From NCBI RefSeq assembly GCF_023343835.1, contig NC_064458.1, positions 4,729,829-4,793,828 of the forward strand: DNA of 64,000 nucleotides, read 5' to 3'. The notes beneath the pieces are model-generated. The model was not told the origin of the DNA. It saw only the letters and a list, made by a program, of their open reading frames with translations, and made no database searches. The DNA comes from Lagopus muta. Lineage: Eukaryota. Made by a program: the position numbers and the translations under genes. Positions within the stretch are counted from its first letter, which is position 1. Every line of letters starts with the position of its first letter. This document shows positions 1,581 through 32,771 of this stretch, in pieces.

Positions 1581-2729
1581 CATTAGCAGCAAACCATTTC
1601 CATTTGTAGTATTTTTTAAAGCGTTGGGGGGAAAAAAAAGGAGAGAAACAAAGCGTAAAACTGGTGGGATATCTGACTTCTTTTTTCGTGAAGGTAGTGC
1701 GTCAATGCCTCGTTTGATGTCAATGGTTGCAATTTTTCGTGAGGTCTTAATGCGTTTGTCAGATTTCTGATGAAATTTTACTCTTGCCATGCAATTGTTC
1801 ACAAGCGTGCTGACTGCCAAAACGCGATGACGTGAATAAGGCTTGACTGCAAAGCGAGGGATATTTCTGTCTGTTAAAAGAGGTCTGACAGAAGTCCAGT
1901 CAGGAGACATGGTTAGATTTTGGAGTCGAATATCTGGTTGGAACTCCAGGCATTCCAATTGAAAACTGGCAGGTAATGCATTTGTATCAACTTAAAATGG
2001 GGTCACCCACATAAAGGGATGATTTTTTGGCAAAATTGAAACCGGTTTCCAAATTCCTTTATCAAAAGAGAAAGCATGGCTGCACATTCTTTGCTGTTCA
2101 GAGCACTGCGTGGGGCCGGGGCTGGGCTGCACTGCTGGCTGTGCGGAGCTGCGCATTGGGTACACCTGCTCTGGGTCCCAGAGAGAGCTCCAACACACAA
2201 AGTAAAGCAATACGGTGCCCAACTCTCTTGCAAAATACTACTTTAGGATTCAGCATTCACCAAGAAAGAGCAAACCTAGCTTTTACAACAGCTCACACAA
2301 ATTACCCAAAGACACCCTGTGAGACAGAAAGCATGAAGATTCATGGAGGCAATCAGCTTTTTTTGGGGTGGAGTTTCAAGCACGCAGCCCAGCCTGGAGC
2401 ACAGCCCCTTTTCCGTTTGTAATCCTGCAGGAGTAGAGCACCTGCTGGGGCACAGAGCATCATCTGGACAGTTTCCACTGACAGAAGTAGAGCATCATAC
2501 TGGGGCAGAAAAAGAAAAAAAAAAGAAAAGAGCATAGCTATATTAAAATACTTTGAACTGAACTTTTCACCCTGCAGGATGAGCTCACTTCAGGGCTCAC
2601 ATCGTGAGAGGTTTGGAAAAAAATATTCAAACATCCTGATTTGTGTTTCCAGTGCTACGGATTAAAAGCTGCAGAAATGCCTTCTCCTCCACCATCCATC
2701 AACTCTGATCCTGGGACAGAGACCCACAA

Positions 2730-2995
2730 ACTCCTCAGGGTTGGAAGGGTCCTCTGAGGGCCATCCGGACCAACCCCCCTGCAGCGCACAGGGACACCGC
2801 AGCTGGGTCAGGTCTCCAGGGACGGAGCACCCAGCGCACCTCTGTGCGACCTGTGCCAGTGCCTCACCACCTCTCTGCAGAAGATTTCGTCCCTATAGCC
2901 AACCTAAACCTCCCCTCTTGGAGCTTGCAGCCATTTCCCTCTCGGAGCTGGAAACCACACTGACACTTTGGTCAGTTTTGGAGCAGAAAATGAGA
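2730..2995 (-). mobile_element. CR1 3'-terminal fragment
   Basis: 'gggttggaagggtcctctgagggccatc...gtgccagtgcctcaccacc...gaagatttcgtccctatagccaacctaaacctcccct' matches the antisense CR1 3'-end architecture. Confidence 0.7.
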
Positions 2996-3049
2996 TGAGA
3001 TGTAGATAGACAGATAACTCGATGTTTTTCTTCCTTGATTTACTATTTA

Positions 3050-3600
3050 TTATGACCTCGCTGACCGACTGCACGCCGCACGCCCAGCACCGCCGCCAGC
3101 TCCAAGCACCACCAGCCCGCCGCGCCGCCAGCGCAGCGCCCTTACACCAACGAGCCGCCGCTTCCGCTCTTCTCGGCACATGCGCAGCACCAGCAGGAGG
3201 ACCCGCTACCATCGAGTTGGAGGGCTGGAGGCACAGAGCAGTCAGAGCAAAGAGGCACCACTTCCGGGTTTCCGGAGGCGTCAGTGTCTGGAGGATCGCT
3301 TCGTATTACCGCAGGGACGGGCGGTACGGAGCGGAGAGAGCAGAGCGACGCGTCGTGCCGCTCCGGGACGGCTCTGTGGTGCTCTGCGGGACCGTGCGGG
3401 CCCCGGGGGGCCCAGAGCGCCCAGAGCTCGTCTGACCCCCCGCTGCCCCTAAAACCGCCGCCGCGGCGGTCCCGACTGCAATTCTGCGCTCCGGTCAAGC
3501 GGTGGCAGCAGAGACCGAGAAAAGAGCGGCGTGGGGCGTGGGTACCGGCGATGGGAGCGGAGCGAGCCTGGGGCTTGGCTCTGCTCGGGTAAATGCGTCC
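3050..3600. promoter_or_regulatory. CpG island inside amplicon unit (orphan)
   Basis: Very CpG-dense (cgccgccagc..gccgcgccgccagcgcagcgcc...). ETS-like 'cacttccgggtttccggagg' and NRF1-like 'gcacatgcgcagc' motifs are present. The long GC-rich ORFs here (e.g. 3142..4026-) are compositional artefacts. Confidence 0.5.
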
Positions 3601-3949
3601 ATTCCAACTGCATTCAGGCTCGGCTAGCTCTGAGCTCTGCCAAAGTGGTTGGCATTTGTCATTGCTGAGCGCACAAAAGGCTCGACCAAAGGTGACGATG
3701 CCCGGAAGGCAGAAGGATGGAGAAAAGCGTGGCCACATCCCTGGCACGGAGCCGAGCCCGTAGCTGGAGAAGGGGGTTGTTCTGCCGGATGTGGACTGGG
3801 AGCGGTTCTGTGCCACGGCCCGAATCTGCCCTTCTTTGGCTTCGGTCGGGCCAGGAGCTGCTGCGCGGTGCCGCACACCGTGCGTGTGCCGTAACCCCAC
3901 GCTGCTCCGTGTGCACGGTGGTTGTGGAGGGCCGTGGTTGTGGGGGGGA

Positions 3950-5070
3950 CCCGAGACCGCCTTCAGCCGGGCGACTGACTCCTGGCTTCTCCGCTGTACT
4001 TCGTACAACCTGTGTTTGTTGTGCACCTTTCACAAGCGTGTGACAGTACAGTGTTTGCTCTGATGCCTTCACAAGGCTGTCACAGCCATGTCTCCTGTCT
4101 CCGGTTAGCCTGTCCACGGGTCCACCTGTGAACCAGACAGAAAGAGGGCGAGAATTCACAGTGTTACAGTTCTGTATGGCATTGTCACAGTCTGAGCCAC
4201 AAAGAAACACGTCGCTTCCTTCACACGCCTACAGAGTATTGAGAGTGAGACATAAATATGTGCGTATACATGCATACAGAGCGTCTGATCCTTCACCAAT
4301 CATAACAGAACTTCTTTTCACCAGCTGCGTATTCACATAGGTTTCACCTTTATAAATGTCCACAGTCCATAAATGCCTCATGAAGCTCATGCAGACTGGG
4401 ACGTGCTTGATCGTTTTTCCAAATCATTTCACTGATGGGCTCCGCCACAAGCTCACCTGAAGCGCAACGGTGCCCAAGCCCAGTGAAAAGTGTTGAAAAG
4501 CAGCAAGGGGCTGGAGATGGAGAAGGGTGAAAGAAGAGCTCGGGTGATGTTTGCACAAAGAACAGAACGTGGAGAGGAACAGCATCCCCAGGTCTTCAAA
4601 TAGACAGAAGTGTTGAGATTGTTTCACTCCCTTCTTCAAGAGTGGATGTGCAGTGGGGTTCATGCCAGCTGACCAGAAAGACACCAAACCTCTATTCATC
4701 AGGGGAAGAGAAGGGTTAGGATGAGCCTGGAAATTATCAACTACTTGGTGTACCATCCAGTCCCGGGACAATTCTAGAAGCTATCACCCAAAAAGTCTTT
4801 CTCAAAAGGTGAAATTTCCTAATGATTTTTGAAGTAGAAGTCACTCTAAGAGGAAATCAGATACAGTTGCACATACAGCACACAGTCCAAATGCGCAGAA
4901 ATTTCTGTGCAAACTGTGCAAAACAAAATGGTAACAAACTCGTGAATGCCTCAGAACAAAAACTGTGCTGCTATGCTCCTGCGAAAGGTGCAGAACAAAC
5001 ATGTTGTGCGTGAGCACAATGGAGAAGTCCGGAGTTTGTTGTCTTGCTTAAGGCGGTCTCGGTTCGATCC
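3950..5070. repeat. ~140-bp inverted-repeat pair (3950-4090 / 4930-5070) flanking ~850 bp; candidate non-autonomous element
   Basis: 3950-4090 is the ~75% reverse complement of 4930-5070 (shared blocks '...gagaccgcctt.ag...ttgt.cacctttc.caag..' ). The right arm ends in a tRNA-T-loop-like 'ggttcgatcccc'. Confidence 0.4.
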
Positions 5071-5149
5071 CCAGCCCCCCACACAACCACCACGCAATGG
5101 GAGAAGCATGACTGGTATGGCATGCACACGGTACATGGCACCAGGCACA

Positions 5150-6250
5150 CTCCACGCCATCTGGAAACTGCTCCTGAGCCAATTGGAAGGGCCCATCCTA
5201 TGGCATAAAATGCATTGCCGACTCCACAGTAGGACCGTCACCCCGGACTTTGGGAGAGCAGGACCTCCTCAGTGGGCCTGCTTGGAGGTATCCCATGGAC
5301 GGGAGCTTTGGCAAGTAGGCCCGAGAGAGCTGCTTGACACTTAAACACCGCTTCCTCCAAGCTCAAGATGGATGCATCCCTGAGAGCAAGAAAGCAGGGA
5401 AAAGTGGCAGGAGAACTGCTGGATAAGCAAGGGGCTCATGGATGGACTCAAAGGGAAGAGGAGCGTACACAGCACGTGGAAGAAGGGCATTTCTACTTGG
5501 AAAGAATGTATGAGCGTTGTCAGGGCCTGCAAGGATGCAATGAGGAAGGCTAAGGCACCCTTGGGATTAAATCCAGCAAAGGCGGTCGAGGAGAACAACA
5601 AGGGCTTTTGTGAGAATGTTGGTAGTAAAACTAAGACTGGAACACATGCGGGTCTGCCACTGAATGCCTTGGTAACAAGGGACAAAGAGAAGGCAGAGGT
5701 ACTGAATGCCTTCTTTGCTTCCATCTTTACTACTAAGATTGCCCCTCCTAAATCCCAGGCCCTGGCGGTAAGAGAGAGAGTCTGGGGAATTAAAGACTTC
5801 CTCCTGCTTGAGGAGGATCTGAACAGGAAGCGTGCAGGCAAAATCAGTGCTCGCAAATTCATGGGCCCTGTGGGGATGCACCCACGTGTGCTGAGAGAGC
5901 TGGTGGAGGTAATTGCTGAACTGCTCTCTATGATCTTGGAGAGGCCTTGGAGAACAGGAGAGCTGCCTGGATGCTGGAGGACAGCCAGCTTCGCACCAGT
6001 CATCGCACCGATGAGTGGGCAGTGAGATGGACTGGGAACTGGCTTGACGACCAAGAGATGATGGAGGGGCCTGGAGCATCTTCCTCACGAGAAAAGGCTG
6101 AGAGACCTAGGACTCTTCAGTCTGGAGAAGAAACGCATGAGCGGGGGATCTCATAACAGTTTGGCCCACTGCGACGGGCCCTGCGTCTGCTCCAAGCCAT
6201 GAGACAGGCCCTGCGCCAGCACCCGACTTCGTGACAGCCCACGTGGTTCA
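5150..6250 (+). mobile_element. CR1 LINE fragment with internal deletion (ORF2 middle joined to the RT C-terminus)
   Basis: The + strand ORFs read 'VLNAFFASIF...SMGPVGMHPRVLRELVEVIAELLSMILERPWRTGELP..W' (CR1 ORF2 sense) and then jump to 'KRLRDLGLFSLEKKRM'. The 5' limit is uncertain. Confidence 0.75.
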
Positions 6251-6749
6251 ACCAGAGAACCCAACTGTGCCAGTATCCATAGCCCTTATTAAAAAGAGCA
6301 AAATGAGGCCGTGAAAATCAGCTCCTTTAATAAGAAAGGAAATACGTTCTAAGAGGGGGGTAGAAGAAGAGGATGAGAATGAAGCCAGGCCATGACAAGA
6401 ACGGCAGGAGGAAGAGGCCGAACTCATAAAGGAGACGAGAACCATTTGACTCCTGAGCACGAGTGAGCTGACAGATATGTGAAAAGACTTCAGCTGTCAT
6501 GCAGGGGAGCACTCTGACACTGGGAGAACGGGGCCGCAAGCCTGGACTAGGCGGGCAGCAAAGGCAGGCATCTGGGATCCCTTTCACGGGCAGGGTGCAT
6601 TGGCAAAGCCCTTGGAAATGAGGCACGAGCCTTCCCCTCGTGGAGGTGACTCTCCGTAAGGGCCGAGAGGGAAAGGAGTCCCTTCAAAGAAGATCTGGTA
6701 TGTTACCCAGGCAAGCGGTGCACCGTGGGGAAAGGTGTGCCTGAGGGCA

Positions 6750-7046
6750 CCAGCTCTTCTGGAGGTGATGCGTAATGCTGAAAAAAGAGGGGAGATACAG
6801 ACTGGCTGTTGGCCGGCAATTGCTGATTCTGAGGGCCCAGGGCTGCCGCCATCTTGCTTGGGAGCCTGGGACGCATTCCGCCCCGAGGGGGTAACCGTGA
6901 TGTCACAGTGGTGGCAGGGAGCGGCCATTGTGACCCATGGGGCTGGGAGCAGAGCAAAGGCTGCCGGGCTCAGAGCGTGGTCAGTGCGGCCTGGTGAGGT
7001 GCAGAGAGAGCAGGGACTCTTCAAGTGCTCACCGTTGACGCGCAAC
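6750..7046 (+). promoter_or_regulatory. Candidate proximal promoter of PHF7-like copy 1
   Basis: This is the region immediately 5' of the ATG exon. It contains a CRE-like 'cgtgatgtcacag' (TGATGTCA) at about 6895-6906 and a 'gccggcaattgctg' CCAAT-like box at about 6815. Confidence 0.3.
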
Positions 7047-7089
7047 ATGTCCAGTAGGAAGCGGAAGGCCCCCGACTCCGGGGAGCAAG
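7047..7089 (+). CDS. PHF7-like copy 1, exon 1 (start codon; MSSRKRKAPDSGEQ + phase-1 G)
   Basis: ATG at 7047 with a CAAG|GTGAGA donor after 7089. The basic KRK N-terminus matches PHF7. The start is the first in-frame ATG of this exon. Upstream coding exons are not excluded. Confidence 0.45.
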
Positions 7090-7272
7090 GTGAGAGCAAA
7101 GCATCCCTGCGTGCAGCTCCCCGCCGCCGGGCAGAGGGGTGCTGGGGGTCTGCCAGCGGCAGAGAGGGAAGGAAGGGGCAGGAGCAAGGAGCACGGCCCT
7201 GGGGACCGCCCTCAGGGACAACTGGCCCCGCAAGGTGCTCACTGCTGCCCGCCTTTGCTCTCTCCTCTCCAG

Positions 7273-7364
7273 TGTGCATGCTGTGTCGCCGGGCGGATGT
7301 CGACCCGAACATCTGCGGGCGCACCTTTGCCGAGAGCGACCTTTGCGTGCATGAGTTCTGCTTG
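7273..7364 (+). CDS. PHF7-like copy 1, exon 2 (C2HC/pre-PHD)
   Basis: '(V)CMLCRRADVDPNICGRTFAESDLCVHEFCL' aligns to PHF7 '[30 protein letters not shown]'. The acceptor is ..ctccag| and the donor is TTG|gtgagt. Confidence 0.7.
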
Positions 7365-7460
7365 GTGAGTTCCAACCCTCAAGGGCTCCTGCCAGCTTCC
7401 TGCCAGGGATGCTCCCTTCCTGTCTGTCCTAACGAGATCCTGCTCTGCTCTTTCCCACAG

Positions 7461-7571
7461 CTTTTTTCTTTGAAGAAAAACACATTCTTTGAAGAAAGCG
7501 ACCCCTGGGAGGAAACGCTGCGCCTCCCCGTTGGGACCATCAGATGCAGAATCAAGCAGGCGGACCAGAAG
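7461..7571 (+). CDS. PHF7-like copy 1, exon 3
   Basis: 'LFSLKKNTFFEESDPWEETLRLPVGTIRCRIKQADQK' is the only open frame, flanked by cccacag| and AAG|gtgagc. It aligns weakly to PHF7 'ILSSKLPQRG...IKKEAARASRK'. Confidence 0.6.
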
Positions 7572-7809
7572 GTGAGCTTTGTGCCAGGAGAGGCTCACGC
7601 CAGCTTAGTCTGCACCCAGAGAAAGCAATGGCAGCCCTTCCAGCGGGCTCCAGGGCAAAGTCCTGCCATAGCAGACGAGCCTTCTCCGCCAGGCGGCTCT
7701 GCAGAGTGGAGCCCAGCAGCTTCCGCAGCCTGTGCCCTGCCCAGAGGTGTGGGGCCGGCCGTGGAGGCCCTGAGCCTGCTGCTGATCGGGGCTGCCTTGT
7801 TCCTTTCAG

Positions 7810-7934
7810 CAATGCTTTGTTTGTGGCGAGAGAGGAGCCGCCATCAGCTGCGCAGAGAGAGGCTGTGCACGCAGCTTCCACCTGCCCTGCGCCGCGGACG
7901 GTGAATGCGTCACCCAGTTCTTTGGGCAGCACAG
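7810..7934 (+). CDS. PHF7-like copy 1, exon 4 (ePHD)
   Basis: 'QCFVCGERGAAISCAERGCARSFHLPCAADGECVTQFFGQH(R)' aligns to PHF7 '[42 protein letters not shown]'. Confidence 0.75.
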
Positions 7935-8084
7935 GTAAGGGCTGTCAGCAGCAGCCAAGCCAGGGAGGAACCCACAGCGACAGCTCCCAGCAGCCTGCCA
8001 GAGATGGGGCCTGGGGCTCCTGCCTGCTGCTCTGCCCTCCTGGCAGTGCTTCTCACTGTGCCCATCACTTGCATCGTCCCCCAG

Positions 8085-8247
8085 GTCCTTCTGCTGCGAG
8101 CACCGCCCGCGACAGGCAGCGGAGGCAGCTCCACCCCAAGGCACTGACTGCGTCATCTGCCTGGAGCCCCTGGAGGACAGCACGTCCTACCAGACCCTGT
8201 GGTGCCCAGCGTGCAAGCACACCTGGTTCCACCGCCGCTGCGTCCAG
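8085..8247 (+). CDS. PHF7-like copy 1, exon 5 (RING/PHD start)
   Basis: 'SFCCEHRPRQ...CVICLEPLEDSTSYQTLWCPACKHTWFHRRCVQ' aligns to PHF7 'SFCDKHRPTQ...CILCCEDLSQQ...CCSQAIYHRKCIQ'. Confidence 0.75.
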
Positions 8248-8338
8248 GTAGAAGCCCTCCCCTCACCCTGCGGCCACGGCCCGCGCTCAGCAGCACCGAG
8301 CCCCGCTCACGCTCACGCTGCTTCTGCTTCTCCGGCAG

Positions 8339-8445
8339 GGGCAGGCCACGAACGCCGGCACCATGTGCTTCCAGTGCCCCATTTGTCGAGACACGGAGCA
8401 ATTCCGGGCAGAAATGTCCACTCTGGGGATCCAAGTCCCAGTCAG
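8339..8445 (+). CDS. PHF7-like copy 1, exon 6
   Basis: 'GQATNAGTMCFQCPICRDTEQFRAEMSTLGIQVPV(R)' aligns to PHF7 '[36 protein letters not shown]'. Confidence 0.75.
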
Positions 8446-8663
8446 GTTGGTGTCCTTCTCCCCAGCGCTGCAGATGGGAAGGCGCGAGCGCTGGGCCTGC
8501 CCAGGGACTGTCCCGGCAGGCCTGGCCCTTTGCTGTCTCACCAGCACAGGCCTCAGCTTCACGGAGAAGCTGGAAATGGGGTTGCCTTGGATGAACGGGG
8601 ATACCCCGGATCACACATGGCAGGGAACCGGGAACTCATCGCATTCCCTCCCTTCTCTTGTAG

Positions 8664-8769
8664 GAGACCGTCTTGGTGGGATGACAACACCTACCCATCA
8701 CTTCTGCGGAGGCACAGGCGCTGCGATGTCAGCAAGTGCCTTTACCCAGGAGGCAGGGAGCAGGCAGAG
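8664..8769 (+). CDS. PHF7-like copy 1, exon 7
   Basis: 'RPSWWDDNTYPSLLRRHRRCDVSKCLYPGGREQAE' aligns to PHF7 '[38 protein letters not shown]'. Confidence 0.7.
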
Positions 8770-8904
8770 GTGAATGGGTGAGTTACCTCAGCAGCCCTCT
8801 GGGCTTCTGCAGGGGATCTCCCCCTCAACACCGGATGGGGAACCAGGGCTGAGCACCGCAGATGTGCCGGCCGCTGCCTGGCTTGGCTCACTTTGTCCTC
8901 ACAG

Positions 8905-9046
8905 CCACAACCCGTTTGCTTCCCCAGGCCCTGGCAGCTGCTGCTCTGCAGCTCCTGTGCTGCAGAAGGGACCCACCGACGATGCTCCTACCTGAGCAAC
9001 AGAGTTGGCAGCTGGGAGTGTGACAGCTGTGCTGGCATAGGCACCG
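8905..9046 (+). CDS. PHF7-like copy 1, exon 8
   Basis: 'PQPVCFPRPWQLLLCSSCAAEGTHRRCSYLSNRVGSWECDSCAGIGT' aligns to PHF7 '[41 protein letters not shown]'. The acceptor ctcacag|CC at 8904 is used. The alternative acceptor at 8927 gives a stop. Confidence 0.6.
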
Positions 9047-9217
9047 GTAAGATGCAAACAGCTGTGGCTCCCTAGGCGGGGGCCGGGCAACGCCTGGCAG
9101 TGGGTGCTGCTCAGGGCGGCCCTGCCAGGCTCTCTCTGCCCCAGGAAGGAGGGCAGCCCGTTGCGACTCAAGGCTGCAGCTTCATCCCAATGATCACCTT
9201 CCTGCTTTCCTTTACAG

Positions 9218-9837
9218 CCTCCAGCAGCAACACGGAGCGCGCCGGACCCAGCACCAACACGGAGCGCGCCGGCCCCAGCACTTCCAGCCAAGGGGCTCCG
9301 GAGCCTCCCCGTGGCTCCCAGGGACCGGAGAACATCAGCTCCGGCTCCAGCAGCCAGGCAGCATCGGGCCCCTCACACCGGTCCCAGCTGCCTGAGAACA
9401 GCCGCCTGCCCAGTGAGCCTGGGACACGGCAGAGGGCAATCGGCCCACGCCTCCCTGAGGATCAGGAGGCATCTCTGCAGCGCCGAGGACGCCGCGGGAG
9501 CGGCCGTGCAACAGCCCCGCGCACCAGCAGCAGCTCCCGCAGGTCCACCCCACGGAGGGCACCGCGGCCCTCCAGCGACTCCCCGGTGGCTGCACCCAGA
9601 AGGAGCCCCAGGCAGCAGGGGACGGGCCGGGCACGAAGCCGCTCCCCGCTTCAAGATCGGGCCTCACGTTCCCAGAGCCGGCCCAGAAGAAGCCGTGGCA
9701 GCAGACAAACACCACGCCGAGCTGCACAGAGCAGCACCCTCTGCTCAGCCGCCCCAGTGACATCGAGGCCCTCGAGGGGTTCCCCGCTGCCTGGACACAG
9801 AAGACCCTCCAGGCAGCAAGGGAGGGCCCACACATGA
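9218..9837 (+). CDS. PHF7-like copy 1, exon 9: ~205-aa Ser/Arg/Pro-rich basic tail + TGA
   Basis: The acceptor is tttacag| at 9217, in frame with ORF 9100..9837. The encoded tail is 'ASSSNTERAGPSTNTERAGPST...RRGRRGSGRATAPRTSSSSRRSTPRRAPRPSS...RSRSPLQDRASRSQSRPRRSRGSRQTPRR...'. Confidence 0.6.
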
Positions 9838-10020
9838 AGCCCTTCCGCAGCGGGATGTCAGGCTGCGACTTCCCACACAGACCCCAGCACGCCGCAGCAG
9901 CCAAACCCAACAGCAGCGGCCAGCCTGGGCACAAAGCTGCTCCCAGGTCCATCTGCAGAACCACATCCCCACAGCCAGACCTCAGTCTGCACAGGAGCAG
10001 CCGGGTGCCAATGACACCTG

Positions 10021-10136
10021 CTCAACTTGGTCAACATCAGCCAAGACGACAAATCCCACGCTCATTTACATCAGCTTGCTCAACTTGGTCAACATCAGCC
10101 AAGACAATAAATCCCACCCCCACCCCCATCAGCTTC
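10021..10136 (+). repeat. 58-bp tandem repeat, 2 units, in the 3' UTR of PHF7-like copy 1
   Basis: Two consecutive 58-bp units. The second is diverged in its last third and carries AATAAA at 10106-10111. Confidence 0.8.
10106..10111 (+). terminator. AATAAA polyA signal of PHF7-like copy 1 (inside the 58-bp repeat)
   Basis: This is the first canonical AATAAA downstream of the stop at 9837. Confidence 0.45.
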
Positions 10137-10199
10137 ATTCTTCTCGTCTTTTCCTGGGGTGGGCAGAGTTCAGACCTCGACCACAGGGTTGCCTTCTCC

Positions 10200-11217
10200 C
10201 CAGCAGAATGGCTCAGGTTGGAGGGGCCCTTAAATATCATCCGGCTCTAACCCCCTTGCCGTGAGCAGGTTCATGCACCACCAGATCAGGATGCCCAGGA
10301 TCCCATCCACCCTGGCCTCAAAGGACTCCAGCAACGGGGTGTCCTGAACCCCTCAGGGAGGAACCTCGCTGTTCCAGTGCCTCGCCACTCCCTGAGGAAA
10401 CAGTTTCTTTCTAACACCTCATCTCTCTCTATCCTCTTTTAGTTTCATGCCATTCCCCCTTGTCCTGTCACTATCAGAATGCATGAAAAAGTCAGTCCTC
10501 CTCCAGCTTGGCAGGACCCTTAAAAGTACGAGAAGGCTGTGGGCACAGAGGTCTCCTCAGAGCCTTCTGTTCTGAAAGCAAAGTGAACCCCACTCCCTCA
10601 ACCTGCCTTCTGAGGTGCGGTGCTCCAGGCCTTGTCTCCTCTTTGCGGCCCTCCTCCGGACCCCCCCTCCCACCGCTCCACACCCCTCCTGTGCTTGGCA
10701 CCCCAGGCTTGGGCGCAGTACTCCAGATGGATGCCCTCGCAAGGGCACAGCAGAGACGGACAATCACCGCCCTGCCCTGCTGGACACCTTCCTCAGGCCT
10801 TCCGGGCTGCAGGCACGTGCTGCTGGCTCATCTCCGGCTTTTTGGCCATTACGACCCCCAGGTCCTTCTCCACAGGGCTTCTCTCGCTGTCTTCTCCTCC
10901 CAGTCTCCACCCGTATCTGCGACTGCCTCAACCCAATCGCAACACCTTGCACTGGGCCTTGTTAAACCTCACGAGATGCTCACGTGCCCTGTATTCCAGC
11001 CTGGGTCCAGGTCCCTCTGGATAGCGTCTCTGCCTTCTGCTGTGCCAAGCGCACCATCAGCTCGGTGCCGTCAGCTGGGGGTGCACTCAATCCCACCGTC
11101 TGTGTCCTTGATAAAAATGCTCACGAGCATCAGTCCCCAGACGGACCCCTGGGTGCCCGGCCTCCACCTGGACACAGAGCCGCTGGCAGCAATCCTCAGG
11201 CACAACATCCCGATGCC
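10200..11217 (-). mobile_element. CR1 fragment (copy of 148-1165), cut at the amplicon junction
   Basis: Direct-repeat copy of the CR1 at 148-1580, truncated at 11217. Confidence 0.8.
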
Positions 11218-11533
11218 TGCCTTTGCTGCCCGCCTAGTCCAGGCTAGCGGCCCCGTTCTCCCAGTGTCAGAGTGCTCCCCTGCATGACAGCTGAAGTCTT
11301 TTCACATATCTGTCAGCTCACTCGTGCTCAGGAGTCAAATGGTTCTCGTCTCCTTTTTGAGTTCGGCCTCTTCCTCCTGCCGTTCTTGTCATGGCCTGGC
11401 TTCATTCTCATCCTCTTCTTCTACCTCCCTCTTAGAACGTATTTCCTTTCTTACTAAAGGAGCTGATTTTCACGGCCTCATTTTGCTCTTTTTAATAAGG
11501 GCTATGGATACTGGCACAGTTGGGTTCTCTGGT

Positions 11534-12694
11534 TGAACCACGTGGGCTGTCACGAAGTCGGGTGCTGGCGCAGGGCCTGTCTCATGGCTTGGAGCAGACG
11601 CAGGGCCCGTCGCAGTGGGCCAAACTGTTATGAGATCCCCCGCTCATGCGTTTCTTCTCCAGACTGAAGAGTCCTAGGTCTCTCAGCCTTTTCTCGTGAG
11701 GAAGATGCTCCAGGCCCCTCCATCATCTCTTGGTCGTCAAGCCAGTTCCCAGTCCATCTCACTGCCCACTCATCGGTGCGATGACTGGTGCGAAGCTGGC
11801 TGTCCTCCAGCATCCAGGCAGCTCTCCTGTTCTCCAAGGCCTCTCCAAGATCATAGAGAGCAGTTCAGCAATTACCTCCACCAGCTCTCTCAGCACACGT
11901 GGGTGCATCCCCACAGGGCCCATGAATTTGCGAGCACTGATTTTGCCTGCACGCTTCCTGTTCAGATCCTCCTCAAGCAGGAGGAAGTCTTTAATTCCCC
12001 AGACTCTCTCTCTTACCGCCAGGGCCTGGGATTTAGGAGGGGCAATCTTAGTAGTAAAGATGGAAGCAAAGAAGGCATTCAGTACCTCTGCCTTCTCTTT
12101 GTCCCTTGTTACCAAGGCATTCAGTGGCAGACCCGCATGTGTTCCAGTCTTAGTTTTACTACCAACATTCTCACAAAAGCCCTTGTTGTTCTCCTCGACC
12201 GCCTTTGCTGGATTTAATCCCAAGGGTGCCTTAGCCTTCCTCATTGCATCCTTGCAGGCCCTGACAACGCTCATACATTCTTTCCAAGTAGAAATGCCCT
12301 TCTTCCACGTGCTGTGTACGCTCCTCTTCCCTTTGAGTCCATCCATGAGCCCCTTGCTTATCCAGCAGTTCTCCTGCCACTTTTCCCTGCTTTCTTGCTC
12401 TCAGGGATGCATCCATCTTGAGCTTGGAGGAAGCGGTGTTTAAGTGTCAAGCAGCTCTCTCGGGCCTACTTGCCAAAGCTCCCGTCCATGGGATACCTCC
12501 AAGCAGGCCCACTGAGGAGGTCCTGCTCTCCCAAAGTCCGGGGTGACGGTCCTACTGTGGAGTCGGCAATGCATTTTATGCCATAGGATGGGCCCTTCCA
12601 ATTGGCTCAGGAGCAGTTTCCAGATGGCGTGGAGTGTGCCTGGTGCCATGTACCGTGTGCATGCCATACCAGTCATGCTTCTCCCATTGCGTGG
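11534..12694 (-). mobile_element. CR1 fragment (inverted copy of 5150-6250)
   Basis: Mirror of the CR1 at 5150-6250 (ORF 11759..12346- is identical to 5438..6025+). Confidence 0.75.
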
Positions 12695-12713
12695 TGGTTG
12701 TGTGGGGGGCTGG

Positions 12714-13834
12714 GGATCGAACCGAGACCGCCTTAAGCAAGACAACAAACTCCGGACTTCTCCATTGTGCTCACGCACAACATGTTTGTTCTGCACCTTT
12801 CGCAGGAGCATAGCAGCACAGTTTTTGTTCTGAGGCATTCACGAGTTTGTTACCATTTTGTTTTGCACAGTTTGCACAGAAATTTCTGCGCATTTGGACT
12901 GTGTGCTGTATGTGCAACTGTATCTGATTTCCTCTTAGAGTGACTTCTACTTCAAAAATCATTAGGAAATTTCACCTTTTGAGAAAGACTTTTTGGGTGA
13001 TAGCTTCTAGAATTGTCCCGGGACTGGATGGTACACCAAGTAGTTGATAATTTCCAGGCTCATCCTAACCCTTCTCTTCCCCTGATGAATAGAGGTTTGG
13101 TGTCTTTCTGGTCAGCTGGCATGAACCCCACTGCACATCCACTCTTGAAGAAGGGAGTGAAACAATCTCAACACTTCTGTCTATTTGAAGACCTGGGGAT
13201 GCTGTTCCTCTCCACGTTCTGTTCTTTGTGCAAACATCACCCGAGCTCTTCTTTCACCCTTCTCCATCTCCAGCCCCTTGCTGCTTTTCAACACTTTTCA
13301 CTGGGCTTGGGCACCGTTGCGCTTCAGGTGAGCTTGTGGCGGAGCCCATCAGTGAAATGATTTGGAAAAACGATCAAGCACGTCCCAGTCTGCATGAGCT
13401 TCATGAGGCATTTATGGACTGTGGACATTTATAAAGGTGAAACCTATGTGAATACGCAGCTGGTGAAAAGAAGTTCTGTTATGATTGGTGAAGGATCAGA
13501 CGCTCTGTATGCATGTATACGCACATATTTATGTCTCACTCTCAATACTCTGTAGGCGTGTGAAGGAAGCGACGTGTTTCTTTGTGGCTCAGACTGTGAC
13601 AATGCCATACAGAACTGTAACACTGTGAATTCTCGCCCTCTTTCTGTCTGGTTCACAGGTGGACCCGTGGACAGGCTAACCGGAGACAGGAGACACGGCT
13701 GTGACAGCCTTGTGAAGGCATCAGAGCAAACACTGTACTGTCACACGCTTGTGAAAGGTGCACAACAAACACAGGTTGTACGAAGTACAGCGGAGAAGCC
13801 AGGAGTCAGTCGCCCGGCTGAAGGCGGTCTCGGG
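12714..13834. repeat. Inverted copy of the 140-bp IR-pair element
   Basis: Mirror of 3950-5070 within the inverted arm. Confidence 0.4.
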
Positions 13835-14183
13835 TCCCCCCCACAACCACGGCCCTCCACAACCACCGTGCACACGGAGCAGCGTGGGGTTACGGCACAC
13901 GCACGGTGTGCGGCACCGCGCAGCAGCTCCTGGCCCGACCGAAGCCAAAGAAGGGCAGATTCGGGCCGTGGCACAGAACCGCTCCCAGTCCACATCCGGC
14001 AGAACAACCCCCTTCTCCAGCTACGGGCTCGGCTCCGTGCCAGGGATGTGGCCACGCTTTTCTCCATCCTTCTGCCTTCCGGGCATCGTCACCTTTGGTC
14101 GAGCCTTTTGTGCGCTCAGCAATGACAAATGCCAACCACTTTGGCAGAGCTCAGAGCTAGCCGAGCCTGAATGCAGTTGGAAT

Positions 14184-14734: not shown

Positions 14735-14788
14735 TAAATAGTAAATCAAGGAAGAAAAACATCGAGTTATCTGTCTATCTACATCTCA

Positions 14789-15054
14789 TCTCATTTTCTG
14801 CTCCAAAACTGACCAAAGTGTCAGTGTGGTTTCCAGCTCCGAGAGGGAAATGGCTGCAAGCTCCAAGAGGGGAGGTTTAGGTTGGCTATAGGGACGAAAT
14901 CTTCTGCAGAGAGGTGGTGAGGCACTGGCACAGGTCGCACAGAGGTGCGCTGGGTGCTCCGTCCCTGGAGACCTGACCCAGCTGCGGTGTCCCTGTGCGC
15001 TGCAGGGGGGTTGGTCCGGATGGCCCTCAGAGGACCCTTCCAACCCTGAGGAGT
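14789..15054 (+). mobile_element. CR1 3'-terminal fragment (inverted copy of 2730-2995)
   Basis: Mirror copy within the inverted arm. Confidence 0.7.
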
Positions 15055-18055: not shown

Positions 18056-18675
18056 TCATGTGTGGGCCCTCCCTTGCTGCCTGGAGGGTCTTCTGTGTCC
18101 AGGCAGCGGGGAACCCCTCGAGGGCCTCGATGTCACTGGGGCGGCTGAGCAGAGGGTGCTGCTCTGTGCAGCTCGGCGTGGTGTTTGTCTGCTGCCACGG
18201 CTTCTTCTGGGCCGGCTCTGGGAACGTGAGGCCCGATCTTGAAGCGGGGAGCGGCTTCGTGCCCGGCCCGTCCCCTGCTGCCTGGGGCTCCTTCTGGGTG
18301 CAGCCACCGGGGAGTCGCTGGAGGGCCGCGGTGCCCTCCGTGGGGTGGACCTGCGGGAGCTGCTGCTGGTGCGCGGGGCTGTTGCACGGCCGCTCCCGCG
18401 GCGTCCTCGGCGCCGCAGAGATGCCTCCTGATCCTCAGGGAGGCGTGGGCCGATTGCCCTCTGCCGTGTCCCAGGCTCACTGGGCAGGCGGCTGTTCTCA
18501 GGCAGCTGGGACCGGTGTGAGGGGCCCGATGCTGCCTGGCTGCTGGAGCCGGAGCTGATGTTCTCCGGTCCCTGGGAGCCACGGGGAGGCTCCGGAGCCC
18601 CTTGGCTGGAAGTGCTGGGGCCGGCGCGCTCCGTGTTGGTGCTGGGTCCGGCGCGCTCCGTGTTGCTGCTGGAGG
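18056..18675 (-). CDS. PHF7-like copy 2, exon 9 (basic SR-rich tail; differs from copy 1 by Q->R: EASLRRRGRRG)
   Basis: Mirror of 9218-9837. ORF 18056..18793- differs from 9100..9837+ by a single residue. Confidence 0.6.
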
Positions 18676-18846
18676 CTGTAAAGGAAAGCAGGAAGGTGAT
18701 CATTGGGATGAAGCTGCAGCCTTGAGTCGCAACGGGCTGCCCTCCTTCCTGGGGCAGAGAGAGCCTGGCAGGGCCGCCCTGAGCAGCACCCACTGCCAGG
18801 CGTTGCCCGGCCCCCGCCTAGGGAGCCACAGCTGTTTGCATCTTAC

Positions 18847-18988
18847 CGGTGCCTATGCCAGCACAGCTGTCACACTCCCAGCTGCCAACTCTGTTGCTCA
18901 GGTAGGAGCATCGTCGGTGGGTCCCTTCTGCAGCACAGGAGCTGCAGAGCAGCAGCTGCCAGGGCCTGGGGAAGCAAACGGGTTGTGG
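18847..18988 (-). CDS. PHF7-like copy 2, exon 8
   Basis: Mirror of 8905-9046. Confidence 0.6.
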
Positions 18989-19123
18989 CTGTGAGGACAA
19001 AGTGAGCCAAGCCAGGCAGCGGCCGGCACATCTGCGGTGCTCAGCCCTGGTTCCCCATCCGGTGTTGAGAGGGAGATCCCCTGCAGAAGCCCAGAGGGCT
19101 GCTGAGGTAACTCACCCATTCAC

Positions 19124-19229
19124 CTCTGCCTGCTCCCTGCCTCCTGGGTAAAGGCACTTGCTGACATCGCAGCGCCTGTGCCTCCGCAGAAGTGATGGGT
19201 AGGTGTTGTCATCCCACCAAGACGGTCTC
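19124..19229 (-). CDS. PHF7-like copy 2, exon 7
   Basis: Mirror of 8664-8769. Confidence 0.7.
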
Positions 19230-19447
19230 CTACAAGAGAAGGGAGGGAATGCGATGAGTTCCCGGTTCCCTGCCATGTGTGATCCGGGGTATCCCCGTTC
19301 ATCCAAGGCAACCCCATTTCCAGCTTCTCCGTGAAGCTGAGGCCTGTGCTGGTGAGACAGCAAAGGGCCAGGCCTGCTGGGACAGTCCCTGGGCAGGCCC
19401 AGCGCTCGCGCCTTCCCATCTGCAGCGCTGGGGAGAAGGACACCAAC

Positions 19448-19554
19448 CTGACTGGGACTTGGATCCCCAGAGTGGACATTTCTGCCCGGAATTGCTCCGT
19501 GTCTCGACAAATGGGGCACTGGAAGCACATGGTGCCGGCGTTCGTGGCCTGCCC
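19448..19554 (-). CDS. PHF7-like copy 2, exon 6
   Basis: Mirror of 8339-8445. Confidence 0.75.
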
Positions 19555-19645
19555 CTGCCGGAGAAGCAGAAGCAGCGTGAGCGTGAGCGGGGCTCGGTGC
19601 TGCTGAGCGCGGGCCGTGGCCGCAGGGTGAGGGGAGGGCTTCTAC

Positions 19646-19808
19646 CTGGACGCAGCGGCGGTGGAACCAGGTGTGCTTGCACGCTGGGCACCACAGGGTC
19701 TGGTAGGACGTGCTGTCCTCCAGGGGCTCCAGGCAGATGACGCAGTCAGTGCCTTGGGGTGGAGCTGCCTCCGCTGCCTGTCGCGGGCGGTGCTCGCAGC
19801 AGAAGGAC
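19646..19808 (-). CDS. PHF7-like copy 2, exon 5
   Basis: Mirror of 8085-8247. Confidence 0.75.
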
Positions 19809-19958
19809 CTGGGGGACGATGCAAGTGATGGGCACAGTGAGAAGCACTGCCAGGAGGGCAGAGCAGCAGGCAGGAGCCCCAGGCCCCATCTCTGGCAGGC
19901 TGCTGGGAGCTGTCGCTGTGGGTTCCTCCCTGGCTTGGCTGCTGCTGACAGCCCTTAC

Positions 19959-20083
19959 CTGTGCTGCCCAAAGAACTGGGTGACGCATTCACCGTCCGCG
20001 GCGCAGGGCAGGTGGAAGCTGCGTGCACAGCCTCTCTCTGCGCAGCTGATGGCGGCTCCTCTCTCGCCACAAACAAAGCATTG
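19959..20083 (-). CDS. PHF7-like copy 2, exon 4
   Basis: Mirror of 7810-7934. Confidence 0.75.
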
Positions 20084-20321
20084 CTGAAAGGAACAAGGCA
20101 GCCCCGATCAGCAGCAGGCTCAGGGCCTCCACGGCCGGCCCCACACCTCTGGGCAGGGCACAGGCTGCGGAAGCTGCTGGGCTCCACTCTGCAGAGCCGC
20201 CTGGCGGAGAAGGCTCGTCTGCTATGGCAGGACTTTGCCCTGGAGCCCGCTGGAAGGGCTGCCATTGCTTTCTCTGGGTGCAGACTAAGCTGGCGTGAGC
20301 CTCTCCTGGCACAAAGCTCAC

Positions 20322-20432
20322 CTTCTGGTCCGCCTGCTTGATTCTGCATCTGATGGTCCCAACGGGGAGGCGCAGCGTTTCCTCCCAGGGGTCGCTTTCT
20401 TCAAAGAATGTGTTTTTCTTCAAAGAAAAAAG
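20322..20432 (-). CDS. PHF7-like copy 2, exon 3
   Basis: Mirror of 7461-7571. Confidence 0.6.
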
Positions 20433-20528
20433 CTGTGGGAAAGAGCAGAGCAGGATCTCATTAGGACAGACAGGAAGGGAGCATCCCTGGCAGGAAGCTG
20501 GCAGGAGCCCTTGAGGGTTGGAACTCAC

Positions 20529-20620
20529 CAAGCAGAACTCATGCACGCAAAGGTCGCTCTCGGCAAAGGTGCGCCCGCAGATGTTCGGGTCGACATCCGC
20601 CCGGCGACACAGCATGCACA
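20529..20620 (-). CDS. PHF7-like copy 2, exon 2
   Basis: Mirror of 7273-7364. Confidence 0.7.
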
Positions 20621-20803
20621 CTGGAGAGGAGAGAGCAAAGGCGGGCAGCAGTGAGCACCTTGCGGGGCCAGTTGTCCCTGAGGGCGGTCCCCAGGGCCGT
20701 GCTCCTTGCTCCTGCCCCTTCCTTCCCTCTCTGCCGCTGGCAGACCCCCAGCACCCCTCTGCCCGGCGGCGGGGAGCTGCACGCAGGGATGCTTTGCTCT
20801 CAC

Positions 20804-20846
20804 CTTGCTCCCCGGAGTCGGGGGCCTTCCGCTTCCTACTGGACAT
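20804..20846 (-). CDS. PHF7-like copy 2, exon 1
   Basis: Mirror (27893-x) of 7047-7089. Identical at the protein level (ORF 19989..20996-). Confidence 0.45.
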
Positions 20847-32745: not shown

Positions 32746-32771
32746 GGGATCTGTAGGAACAGGACTCTCAC

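What the first reader, a model, noticed from the sequence alone, without database searches (positions are those of the whole stretch)
7047..9837. PHF7-like E3 ligase gene with an appended ~200-aa protamine-like Ser/Arg/Pro-rich basic tail
Exons 2-8 align residue-for-residue with the ePHD + RING/PHD core of PHF7 (C-x2-C ... FVC..GAAI.C....C...FHLPC ... SFC..HRP ... WEC..C). PHF7 is the testis H2A ubiquitin ligase needed for histone-to-protamine exchange. The last exon does not follow the short PHF7 C-terminus. It encodes a long low-complexity tail (RRGRRGSGRATAPRTSSSSRRSTPRRAPRPSS...RSRSPLQDRASRSQSRPRRSRGSRQTPRR) with an NTERAGPST x2 internal duplication. The tail is reminiscent of SR-protein or protamine/transition-protein arginine tracts. 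The fusion of a chromatin-writer core to a DNA- or RNA-binding basic tail, in an amplified gene, looks like a lineage-specific innovation.
Basis: partly seen in the sequence, partly recalled or inferred. Interest (0 to 1): 0.75.

Follow-up and report, generated by a model that had tools for sequence, protein, structure and literature searches.

The report
Bird PHF7-like gene, long basic tail
This is a real gene already in RefSeq, one copy of the known bird-wide amplification of the testis chromatin ubiquitin ligase PHF7; its long arginine/serine-rich tail is genuine, but it grew from a short tail already present in turtles and ratites and most bird copies carry it, so it is not a new fusion.

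Summary
Nine exons with canonical AG/GT sites (7047-9837, + strand) encode a 497-aa protein, not 502. It is identical to RefSeq XP_048783379.1, "PHD finger protein 7-like" of Lagopus muta.

Residues 11-299 match solved PHF7 (E=1.5e-59), and all 28 zinc ligands are present. Exon 9 encodes a 207-aa tail: pI 12, S 21%, R 19%, P 13%, no Lys, net charge +29, predicted disordered.

The tail is truly coding:
- It has the same frame and stop in five galliform orthologues.
- Its only indels against chicken are 27 and 12 nt.
- dN/dS is 0.51 (CI 0.32-0.87).
- A chicken mRNA contig joins exons 8 and 9 exactly.

The tail is not a fusion and is not specific to this gene. The terminal exon sits behind the same phase-1 intron in turtle (49 aa), rhea (59 aa) and here (206 aa). 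About 90 other bird PHF7-like proteins carry similar tails. It is neither a canonical RS domain nor a protamine. The avian PHF7 amplification is published.

One possibly unreported point: the long-tailed bird copies have lost the positive charge of the DNA-binding ePHD while the tail gained about +20. This suggests DNA binding moved to the tail. That is inferred, not tested.

The parts
7047..7089 (+). Exon 1, coding part: ATG and MSSRKRKAPDSGEQ, a basic N-terminal cluster
   Evidence: The chicken orthologue starts 3 codons upstream. An in-frame upstream ORF back to 6660 is used by the RefSeq 590-aa isoforms. It has pLDDT about 30 and is absent from the 484-497-aa models of the five other galliforms, so it is probably 5' UTR.
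7273..8247 (+). Exons 2-5 (7273-7364, 7461-7571, 7810-7934, 8085-8247): ePHD (aa 16-131) and the first half of the RING (from aa 146)
   Evidence: Pfam zf-HC5HC2H E=3.6e-12 and zf-RING_2 E=2.7e-6. PHF7 8jwj E=1.5e-59. Zinc ligands are invariant in 44 bird paralogues.
8339..9046 (+). Exons 6-8 (8339-8445, 8664-8777, 8928-9046): end of the RING, the E2-contacting linker (W218, W219) and the C-terminal PHD (aa 234-286), ending CAGIGT with a phase-1 donor G|GTAAGA
   Evidence: PDB 1weq (PHF7 PHD) E=7.2e-15 over aa 222-290. Splice sites.
9218..9477 (+). Exon 9, proximal tail (aa 292-378): Ser/Gly/Pro/Glu-rich and near-neutral. It includes the 27-nt tandem duplication NTERAGPST x2 (TRF 9221-9281).
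   Evidence: The duplication is present in Lagopus, Tympanuchus, Meleagris and Chrysolophus and single in Gallus.
9478..9837 (+). Exon 9, distal tail (aa 379-497) and the TGA stop. The composition was computed on aa 386-497: Arg 25%, Ser 21%, Pro 13%, net +26, no Lys or Glu. It contains one copy of the roughly 62-aa module RSRSPLQ...SRPRRSRGSR...RQQGRAHT, which is tandemly repeated in paralogues.
   Evidence: Repeated modules in turkey P0006 and guineafowl P0010.
9838..10130 (+). 3' UTR with a 58-nt x2 tandem repeat (10019-10135) that carries the AATAAA signal
   Evidence: The chicken mRNA contig L006 ends just after the homologous AATAAA.
18056..20846 (-). Second, inverted copy of the whole gene. 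Its exons are 20846-20804, 20620-20529, 20432-20322, 20083-19959, 19808-19646, 19554-19448, 19229-19116, 18965-18847 and 18675-18056. The protein differs only by Q379R.

Best explanation
Identity (shown). The locus is a RefSeq-annotated member of the avian PHF7-like gene amplification in rock ptarmigan (Lagopus muta). It sits in a roughly 10-kb repeat unit that is present at least twice in the window.

Protein (shown). It has an intact ePHD-RING-PHD zinc-finger core of the PHF7 histone ubiquitin-ligase type. This is followed by a 207-aa intrinsically disordered tail rich in arginine, serine and proline, with net charge about +29.

Origin of the tail (shown). The tail is the ancestral sauropsid PHF7 terminal exon, which encodes about 50-60 aa ending in a short RSR...RPR basic cluster in turtle and rhea. 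It was lengthened in place by internal duplication and low-complexity growth in the amplified bird genes.

Mechanism (inferred, about 45%). In mammalian PHF7 the strongly basic ePHD supplies the main DNA/nucleosome contact. In the long-tailed bird paralogues, including this one, the ePHD has lost that positive charge. The polybasic tail most likely takes over as a non-specific electrostatic DNA/nucleosome tether and nuclear-retention signal. It would hold the RING-PHD module on spermatid chromatin, and its many Ser, Ser-Pro and Thr-Pro sites make it tunable by phosphorylation.

Expression. Testis expression is inferred from chicken literature, not shown for this locus.
For: Identity:
- The 497-aa model equals XP_048783379.1/XP_048783380.1.
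- PHF7 8jwj matches at E=1.5e-59 over aa 11-299, with Pfam support.
- All 28 Cys/His zinc ligands are invariant in 44 paralogues.

The tail is coding:
- The orthologues keep the same frame and the same C-terminal end (RQQGRAHT; RQQGRART in turkey).
- There are only 27-nt and 12-nt indels against chicken.
- Pooled dN/dS from two independent species pairs is 0.51 (CI 0.32-0.87) for the tail and 0.32 (CI 0.18-0.58) for the core.
- The intronless chicken contig L006 from SRR32603924 joins exons 2-9 at the annotated junctions.

Disorder: pLDDT is about 30 with no secondary structure across the tail, and the tail falls on the disordered side of a charge-hydropathy plot.

In-place expansion:
- The same phase-1 intron after CAG-x-G-x is found in turtle L007, rhea L008 and here. 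The terminal exon encodes 49, 59 and 206 aa respectively.
- The proximal tail is similar to rhea (E=0.002).
- No non-PHF7 homologue of the tail was found.

Family-wide feature: 88 bird PHF7-like proteins have a median tail length of 227 aa and a median net charge of +24.

Charge relocation:
- ePHD net charge is +4 to +11 in mammals, +5/+6 in turtles, +8 in rhea and a median of +4 in 58 outgroup representatives.
- It is -1 here and a median of -2 in long-tailed birds.
- Lee et al. 2023 (PMC10760634) showed that PHF7 binds the nucleosome mainly through ePHD-DNA contacts, via the patches R67/K71/R76 and K87/R88/R92. Here these positions are K50/E57/E62 and R73/C74/Q78.

Testis bias: reported for the chicken copies in PMC6609395.
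Against: - No experiment or expression data exist for this locus, and the tissue of SRR32603924 is unknown.
- Within birds, ePHD charge and tail charge correlate only weakly (r=-0.18).
- Residue equivalences in the ePHD loop lie next to an alignment gap.
- The upper confidence limit of tail dN/dS (0.87) allows weak constraint.
- S/R/P/A/G richness is what a 71%-GC exon tends to encode.
- The E2-contact residue E232, whose E232R mutant abolishes UBE2D2 binding (PMC10760634), is Trp (W219) here. Ligase activity of this clade is therefore itself unproven.
- Crocodilian and squamate PHF7 were not sampled.
Confidence: 0.55

Rival explanations
1. The tail works as an RS-like, kinase-regulated domain. 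SRPK, CLK or Akt phosphorylation would direct the ligase to RNA, splicing speckles or RS-binding partners, rather than the tail acting as a DNA tether.
For: There are 17 RS/SR dipeptides in the tail against 3 in the core. The tail has an RSRSP motif, two RxRxxS Akt-type sites and six S/T-P sites. NCBI's pipeline named paralogues 'serine/arginine repetitive matrix protein 2-like'. RS stretches in chromatin proteins such as turkey LBR are SRPK1 substrates (PMC4841541).
Against: The best 50-aa window has 36% RS content and the longest alternation is RSRS. No R-x-R/K-x-x-x-R docking motif is present, and there is no RRM. Turkey LBR has five consecutive RS repeats. The >40% RS and RRM criteria for canonical RS domains come from my own recollection of the SR-protein nomenclature.
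Confidence: 0.2
2. The tail is mostly a weakly constrained by-product. Replication slippage and GC-biased evolution in a GC-rich, rapidly duplicating array lengthened a short basic C-terminus. Only a nuclear localisation or solubility role is selected, and the exact length and sequence do not matter.
For: Exon 9 is 71% GC with GC2 of 0.79. Tail length varies from 150 to 370 aa among paralogues through tandem module gain or loss. The tail has a higher dN/dS than the core, with an upper limit of 0.87. An open frame of this length is expected in 29% of composition-matched sequences. The Drosophila Phf7 C-terminus is likewise fast-evolving (PMC7973481).
Against: dN/dS is below 1 in pooled independent comparisons. 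The RSRSPLQ.RA..SQSRPRR module is conserved across Galliformes. Strong positive charge with Lys avoidance recurs in about 90 paralogues across bird orders. The ePHD charge loss coincides with it.
Confidence: 0.2
3. Exon 9 is an annotation artefact. The real protein would end soon after the PHD, or use another 3' exon, and the long ORF would be untranslated 3' UTR.
For: ORF length alone is not significant. One Gnomon isoform (P0128) splices out of the tail at about 9586 into the 3' UTR.
Against: The frame is conserved with the same stop in five galliform orthologues. Indels are in multiples of three. dN/dS is below 1. The spliced chicken mRNA contig carries the full ORF. The terminal exon is homologous and coding in turtle and rhea.
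Confidence: 0.03
4. The gene is a G2E3 orthologue rather than a PHF7 family member.
For: PHF7 evolved from G2E3 (PMC7973481). Some paralogues carry automatic 'G2/M phase-specific E3 ubiquitin-protein ligase-like' names.
Against: Bona fide avian G2E3 (P0199, 743 aa) is 34-35% identical and its 458-aa C-terminal region bears no resemblance to this tail. There is no HECT hit here. The turtle PHF7 representative P0165 (E=6.9e-75, 43%) and the mammalian PHF7 representative P0196 (E=2.2e-56, 37%) both score better than avian G2E3 P0199 (E=3.5e-54, 35%).
Confidence: 0.01

Closest known systems
Mammalian PHF7 (E3 ubiquitin ligase; structures 8jwj and 8jwu; Lee et al. 2023, PMC10760634)
   Same: The same three-domain ePHD-RING-PHD core, aligned end to end over aa 11-299 (E=1.5e-59). 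All zinc ligands are kept, and the linker Trp (W231 equivalent) is kept.
   Different: The mammalian tail is 50-85 aa, pI 6-10, net charge -3 to +7, and ends in a Lys/Arg cluster. Here the tail is 207 aa, pI 12, +29, with no Lys. The mammalian ePHD is +4 to +11; here it is -1. The E2-contact E232 is Trp here. The gene is single-copy in mammals and amplified in birds.
Avian PHF7-like expansion (Fouchecourt et al. 2019, PMC6609395, and 2022 Genomics 114:110411; PMC11835228; PMC10360393)
   Same: This gene is a member. RefSeq names it PHF7-like. Its chicken orthologues form a tandem array with a 9.76-kb period on a 5.4-Mb chromosome record. Tails of the same type occur in about 90 paralogues.
   Different: Nothing material. 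This copy carries one basic module where some paralogues carry two to five.
Turtle and palaeognath PHF7 / PHF7-like (Lepidochelys P0165, Rhea P0104)
   Same: The terminal exon is homologous, behind the same phase-1 intron. The exon start is the same (A-S-S/R...), and there is an S/P/A-rich stretch followed by an RSR...RPR basic end.
   Different: The tail is only 55-64 aa with net +7/+8, and the ePHD is still basic at +5 to +8.
Drosophila Phf7 with its evolutionarily novel C-terminus (Yang 2021, PMC7973481)
   Same: A conserved three-zinc-finger module carries a long, fast-evolving C-terminal region without recognisable domains. In the fly this region is functionally required for germline masculinisation.
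   Different: The origin is independent: insect and amniote Phf7 are reported as not orthologous. There is no sequence similarity, and the fly tail was not described as polybasic.
RS domains (SR proteins, SRRM2, lamin B receptor) and protamines
   Same: Disordered, Arg- and Ser-rich, Lys-poor, with RSRSP-type motifs that are potential SRPK or Akt sites.
   Different: It falls below RS-domain criteria (36% RS, run of 2) and has no RRM. Arg is at most 32% per 60 aa, far below protamine levels as I recall them. No homology was detected.

Membership tests
PHF7 family (ePHD-RING-PHD histone E3 ligases) | N-terminal extended PHD (zf-HC5HC2H) with three zinc sites | tested here: met
   Pfam PF13771 at E=3.6e-12, 46.8 bits against a cut-off of 29.1, over aa 41-131. 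The 12 Cys/His ligands C16...H130 are invariant in 44 paralogues.
PHF7 family (ePHD-RING-PHD histone E3 ligases) | Central RING finger | tested here: met
   Pfam zf-RING_2 at 28.0 bits against a cut-off of 27.3, over aa 145-195. Ligands C146, C149, C164, C167, H173, C176, C191 and C194 are present.
PHF7 family (ePHD-RING-PHD histone E3 ligases) | C-terminal PHD (PHD_G2E3 type) directly after a short linker | tested here: met
   PDB 1weq (PHF7 PHD) at E=7.2e-15 over aa 222-290. PF26054 is precomputed for the identical RefSeq protein.
PHF7 family (ePHD-RING-PHD histone E3 ligases) | End-to-end collinear similarity to solved PHF7 | tested here: met
   8jwj at E=1.5e-59, query 11-299 against chain 6-291.
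PHF7 family (ePHD-RING-PHD histone E3 ligases) | Conserved E2 (UBE2D2) contact residues in the linker (W231, E232, F238, Y242) | tested here: inconclusive
   W231 corresponds to W218 and is kept. E232 corresponds to W219. By the alignment, F238 corresponds to Y224 and Y242 to L228. E232R abolishes binding in mammalian PHF7. The effect of Trp is unknown.
PHF7 family (ePHD-RING-PHD histone E3 ligases) | Ubiquitin-ligase activity on H3K14 or H2AK119, and H3K4me2/3 reading | not testable with these tools
   This needs in vitro ubiquitination and binding assays.
1:1 orthologue of mammalian PHF7 | Single-copy gene at the conserved syntenic locus | tested here: not met
   The gene sits in a roughly 10-kb repeat unit with two copies in the window. 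The chicken orthologues form a tandem array. Short-tailed bird and turtle proteins are closer to mammalian PHF7. Synteny itself was not examined.
G2E3 | C-terminal HECT-like domain after the three zinc fingers | tested here: not met
   No HECT hit at E<=0.1. The C-terminus is a low-complexity disordered tail. Avian G2E3 P0199 is 34-35% identical.
SR protein / canonical RS domain | RS domain of at least 50 aa with more than 40% RS content in consecutive RS/SR repeats, plus an RRM (criteria recalled from the SR-protein nomenclature, not checked here) | tested here: not met
   The best 50-aa window has 36% RS content and the longest run is RSRS. No RRM was found in Pfam.
Protamine / transition protein | Small protein (about 50-110 aa) with Arg as the majority residue (protamine), or Arg+Lys-rich (TNP) | tested here: not met
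   The tail is part of a 497-aa protein. Maximum Arg is 32% in any 60 aa, and there is no Lys. No homologue outside PHF7-like was found.

The most novel reading that the evidence does not exclude
In the amplified bird PHF7-like genes, the nucleosome/DNA-binding function has moved from the folded ePHD to an expanded polybasic disordered tail. The ePHD net charge falls from about +6 to +9 down to about -2, while the tail rises from about +8 to between +24 and +30. Some clades, including this one, have also altered the E2-contact residue E232 to Trp. The array copies would then be rewired chromatin binders, or even ligase-dead competitors, in spermatids. That would resemble the ampliconic, possibly conflict-driven, testis gene families of mammalian sex chromosomes.
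Probability: 0.25. Interest if true: 0.55.

Novelty: already known. Interest (0 to 1): 0.3.

Why it matters
As a gene, it matters little. It is annotated in RefSeq, belongs to a published bird-specific amplification of PHF7, and its tail is shared by most paralogues.

The useful results are these:
- A clear statement that the tail is a genuine, constrained coding region.
- Evidence that it arose by growth of the ancestral terminal exon rather than by fusion.
- A testable lead. The long-tailed bird copies have lost the basic ePHD surface that mammalian PHF7 uses to bind nucleosomal DNA, and have gained a polybasic tail.

If the tail really replaces the ePHD as the DNA anchor, the family would be a natural example of a binding function migrating from a folded domain to a disordered region. 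It might also help explain why birds keep dozens of testis-expressed PHF7 copies.

Tried and rejected
- ORF length as evidence for coding was rejected. 29% of composition-matched simulations are open in a fixed frame.
- The tail-only homology search returned only six galliform PHF7-like fragments and did not even recover the parent protein. The word-based candidate step was swamped by low-complexity sequences. It shows no foreign donor but is not exhaustive.
- My first transfer of exon boundaries to chicken by genomic MAFFT mis-set exon 3. I replaced it with an exact protein-guided spliced mapping.
- I first read the self-similarity as a simple palindrome centred near 11208. No inverted repeat spans that point. 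It is a junction between two oppositely oriented array segments in different register.
- A look-up of the exact 497-aa product in the contig index failed, because only the longest isoform is indexed.
- Fouchecourt et al. 2022 and Warren et al. 2010 are not held in the library. I therefore could not check whether the tail has already been described there.
- The Tamandua representative of mammalian PHF7 has an aberrant isoform tail. I replaced it with other mammals.
- The G2E3, protamine and canonical RS-domain readings were considered and rejected (see the membership tests).
- A resemblance of RSRSP to chicken protamine rests on my memory only and was not tested.


Full report
**1. What is in the sequence**

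I read 6500-10500 and anchored the splice sites. This gave nine exons: 7047-7089, 7273-7364, 7461-7571, 7810-7934, 8085-8247, 8339-8445, 8664-8777, 8928-9046 and 9218-9837. Every intron is GT...AG, the frame is continuous, and the stop is TGA at 9835-9837.

The first 290 residues have pI 7.7. The last 207 (aa 291-497) have pI 12.0 with S 20.8%, R 19.3%, P 13.0%, A 9.7%, G 8.7% and no Lys, Phe, Tyr, Trp or Met.

The tail has two parts:
- A near-neutral Ser/Gly/Pro/Glu-rich proximal half, net +3 over aa 291-385.
- A distal half, aa 386-497, with Arg 25%, Ser 21%, Pro 13% and net +26.

NTERAGPST is duplicated at aa 296-313. This is a 27-nt tandem repeat at 9221-9281.

**2. Identity of the core**

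- phmmer against PDB sequences gives PHF7 (8jwj) at E=1.5e-59 over query 11-299, and the isolated PHF7 PHD (1weq) at E=7.2e-15 over aa 222-290.
- Pfam finds zf-HC5HC2H and zf-RING_2 above their curated cut-offs and no HECT domain.
- In an alignment of 44 bird family members, all 28 Cys/His zinc ligands of the three fingers are invariant.
- Bona fide avian G2E3 (743 aa) is only about 34% identical.

**3. It is already annotated**

The large protein search returned a 100%-identical, 100%-coverage hit: "PHD finger protein 7-like" of Lagopus muta. The window is therefore rock ptarmigan DNA.

The cluster contains a 497-aa member, XP_048783379.1/XP_048783380.1, that is letter-for-letter my model. 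RefSeq therefore already joins exon 8 to exon 9.

The longer RefSeq isoforms (590 aa) start at an upstream in-frame ATG. That extension is absent from the 484-497-aa models of the five other galliforms and has pLDDT about 30. I regard it as 5' UTR.

**4. Is the tail really coding?**

ORF length is not evidence here. Exon 9 is 71% GC, 29% of first-order Markov simulations are open in a fixed frame, and another frame has a 180-codon open stretch.

The evidence comes from comparison and transcripts:
- Orthologues in L. leucura, Tympanuchus, Meleagris, Chrysolophus and Gallus keep the frame through to the same C-terminal end, RQQGRAHT, with one substitution (RQQGRART) in turkey.
- Against chicken genomic DNA, the terminal exon has only two indels, of 27 nt and 12 nt.
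- I mapped exact CDSs for chicken, turkey and Tympanuchus and computed Nei-Gojobori dN/dS. Two phylogenetically independent pairs were pooled (Lagopus-Tympanuchus and Meleagris-Gallus). The core gives 0.32 (bootstrap CI 0.18-0.58) and the tail gives 0.51 (CI 0.32-0.87). The tail is constrained, though less than the core.
- A 2,490-nt Logan contig from run SRR32603924 carries an uninterrupted 479-aa ORF. It matches chicken exons 2-9 at 98-100% with every intron removed at the annotated sites, and it ends just after AATAAA. This is a spliced mRNA that contains the exon 8|9 join. It uses an alternative 5' exon. Its tissue is unknown to me.

**5. Structure**

AlphaFold2 with the 44-sequence alignment gives pLDDT of about 70-90 for the ePHD and RING. 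Across the whole tail it gives about 30 with no secondary structure. This agrees with the charge-hydropathy position of the tail.

**6. Not a fusion and not lineage-specific**

Tails of the 135 bird proteins collected up to that point were measured after the WEC..C motif. Most are 150-370 aa with pI about 12, S about 20%, R 15-28%, P 8-17% and K about 0. They come from Galliformes, Anseriformes, owls, raptors, gulls, loons, cranes, parrots and passerines.

Several paralogues carry the distal basic module in tandem. Turkey P0006 has two copies and guineafowl P0010 has three. Zebra finch P0139 has about five copies of a different RS-rich unit.

Outgroups show where the tail came from:
- Turtle PHF7 (P0165) ends in a 55-aa tail, ...GGRRPGPTALTSRSRLSRPRK.
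- Rhea P0104 ends in a 64-aa tail...ERRPSRSRLARRSQNPYRRP.
- At DNA level the last intron is phase 1 and lies at the same place in all three. The junctions are turtle CAGPAGA|ASRQ, rhea CAGLGP|ASSA and ptarmigan CAGIGT|ASSS. The terminal exon encodes 49, 59 and 206 aa respectively.
- The proximal tail of ptarmigan and rhea is detectably similar (E=0.002).
- A search with the tail alone found only galliform PHF7-like fragments.

The tail is therefore the ancestral terminal exon grown in place, not a captured domain.

Mammalian PHF7 tails are 50-85 aa with pI 6-10 and a short Lys/Arg end.

**7. How 'protamine/SR-like' is it?**

The resemblance is only compositional:
- The best 50-aa window has 36% of residues in RS/SR dipeptides.
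- The longest alternation is RSRS.
- There is no SRPK docking consensus.
- There are two RxRxxS sites and six S/T-P sites.
- The maximum Arg content is 32% in 60 aa.

There is no RRM. Canonical RS-domain and protamine memberships are not met.

**8. Amplification and context**

A second copy lies on the minus strand at 20846-18056. It has six substitutions over 3.1 kb and one amino-acid change, Q379R.

Self-BLAST shows a unit of roughly 10.05 kb. It is present 1.1 times in direct orientation (1-11210) and then about 1.1 times inverted (11207-22374), joined out of register at about 11208. The chicken orthologues form a direct tandem array with a 9.76-kb period.

The avian PHF7 expansion is documented in the literature:
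- 63 predicted chicken co-orthologues, testis-enriched, with multiple copies also in zebra finch, turkey and duck (PMC6609395).
- Annotated copy number ranges from 0 to 68 depending on the assembly (PMC11835228).
- Expansion in turkey (PMC10360393).

**9. Likely mechanism**

Lee et al. 2023 (PMC10760634) reported the following for mammalian PHF7:
- It binds nucleosomes mainly through a highly basic ePHD contacting DNA, via the patches R67/K71/R76 and K87/R88/R92.
- It reads H3K4me2/3 with the C-terminal PHD.
- It clamps UBE2D2 between RING, linker and PHD, with contacts W231, E232, F238 and Y242.

By the alignment, the six patch residues are K50, E57, E62, R73, C74 and Q78 in this protein. Across bird paralogues only the R88 position is mostly basic.

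ePHD net charge shows the same shift:

| Group | ePHD net charge |
|---|---|
| Ten mammals | +4 to +11 |
| Turtles | +5/+6 |
| Rhea | +8 |
| 58 mostly non-avian representatives | median +4 |
| This gene (orthologues -1 to -4) | -1 |
| 88 long-tailed bird paralogues | median -2 |

Tail net charge moves the other way. It is -3 to +8 in mammals, turtle and rhea, and +27 to +30 here.

The simplest reading is that electrostatic DNA/nucleosome anchoring and nuclear retention have shifted to the disordered tail, with Ser/Thr phosphorylation as a plausible switch. This is inference, and several points weaken it:
- Within birds the two charges correlate weakly (r=-0.18).
- The ePHD loop alignment is next to a gap.
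- The E232-equivalent residue is Trp in this clade (9 of 44 aligned sequences). Ligase competence with UBE2D2 is therefore unproven.

**10. Verdict**

The object is an already annotated member of a published gene-family expansion. Its tail is a family-wide, in-place elaboration of an ancestral short basic C-terminus.

The only element I could not find described is the apparent relocation of positive charge from the ePHD to the tail. I could not read Fouchecourt et al. 2022 or Warren et al. 2010 to check.

Noticed in passing
window 1-22374: A repeat unit of roughly 10.05 kb carries the PHF7-like gene. It is present about 1.1 times in direct orientation (1-11210) and then about 1.1 times inverted (11207-22374) at 99.7-99.9% identity. 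The two segments are joined out of register near 11208, so the two genes converge tail to tail. This could be real ampliconic structure or an assembly artefact.
   Followed up: partly
window 8673-8678 (aa W218-W219): The linker residue equivalent to PHF7 E232 is Trp in this gene and its galliform orthologues (motif PSWWDD) and in 9 of 44 aligned bird paralogues. In mammalian PHF7 the E232R mutant abolishes UBE2D2 binding. Most paralogues keep Glu.
   Followed up: partly
window 6660-7046: An in-frame ORF upstream of the ATG at 7047 is used by the RefSeq 590-aa and 574-aa isoforms. It is absent from the 484-497-aa models of the five other galliforms and has pLDDT about 30, so it is probably 5' UTR read as CDS.
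   Followed up: partly
window about 9586-9957 and about 10158-10268: RefSeq isoform XP_048783196.1 (P0128, 574 aa) splices out of the middle of the tail (after ...PSSDSP) into the 3' UTR and beyond. This removes the most basic module. It may be a cryptic or low-confidence Gnomon intron. That model carries His in the upstream region, like the plus-strand copy, but Arg at residue 379, like the minus-strand copy.
   Followed up: no
window 10019-10135: A 58-nt x2 tandem repeat in the 3' UTR. Only the second copy carries an intact AATAAA; the first reads GACAAA.
   Followed up: no
window 32346-33257 (-): An ORF with a Major Vault Protein repeat (Pfam Vault, E=3.9e-7). It is probably an MVP exon.
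   Followed up: no
window 45541-46164 (-): An ORF fragment matching olfactory-receptor / rhodopsin-family 7TM domains (E about 1e-14 to 5e-15). It covers only part of the domain and is probably an OR pseudogene or fragment.
   Followed up: no
window 60424-62037 (-): A 537-aa ORF in a GC-rich region with no Pfam hit. Its C-terminal half contains retroviral-integrase-like motifs (...VIESDQGTHF...LPYNPTGAGLIERYNGILK...). It is probably an endogenous retrovirus remnant. The recognition is by eye only.
   Followed up: no
L001 (chicken CM028509.1) 259-22762: Three chicken orthologues lie in direct tandem with a 9.76-kb period. The mRNA contig L006 uses alternative 5' exons about 0.7-1.7 kb upstream of exon 2, which gives a different N-terminus (MQRRKEGTGSSG...).
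   Followed up: partly
P0139 (zebra finch PHF7-like, 635 aa): The tail contains about five tandem copies of a roughly 46-aa RS-rich unit (SPRRSRSRQQHRALSPPVRSRSRRDRS...). This is far more RS-like than the ptarmigan tail, so passerine copies may come closer to a true RS domain.
   Followed up: no
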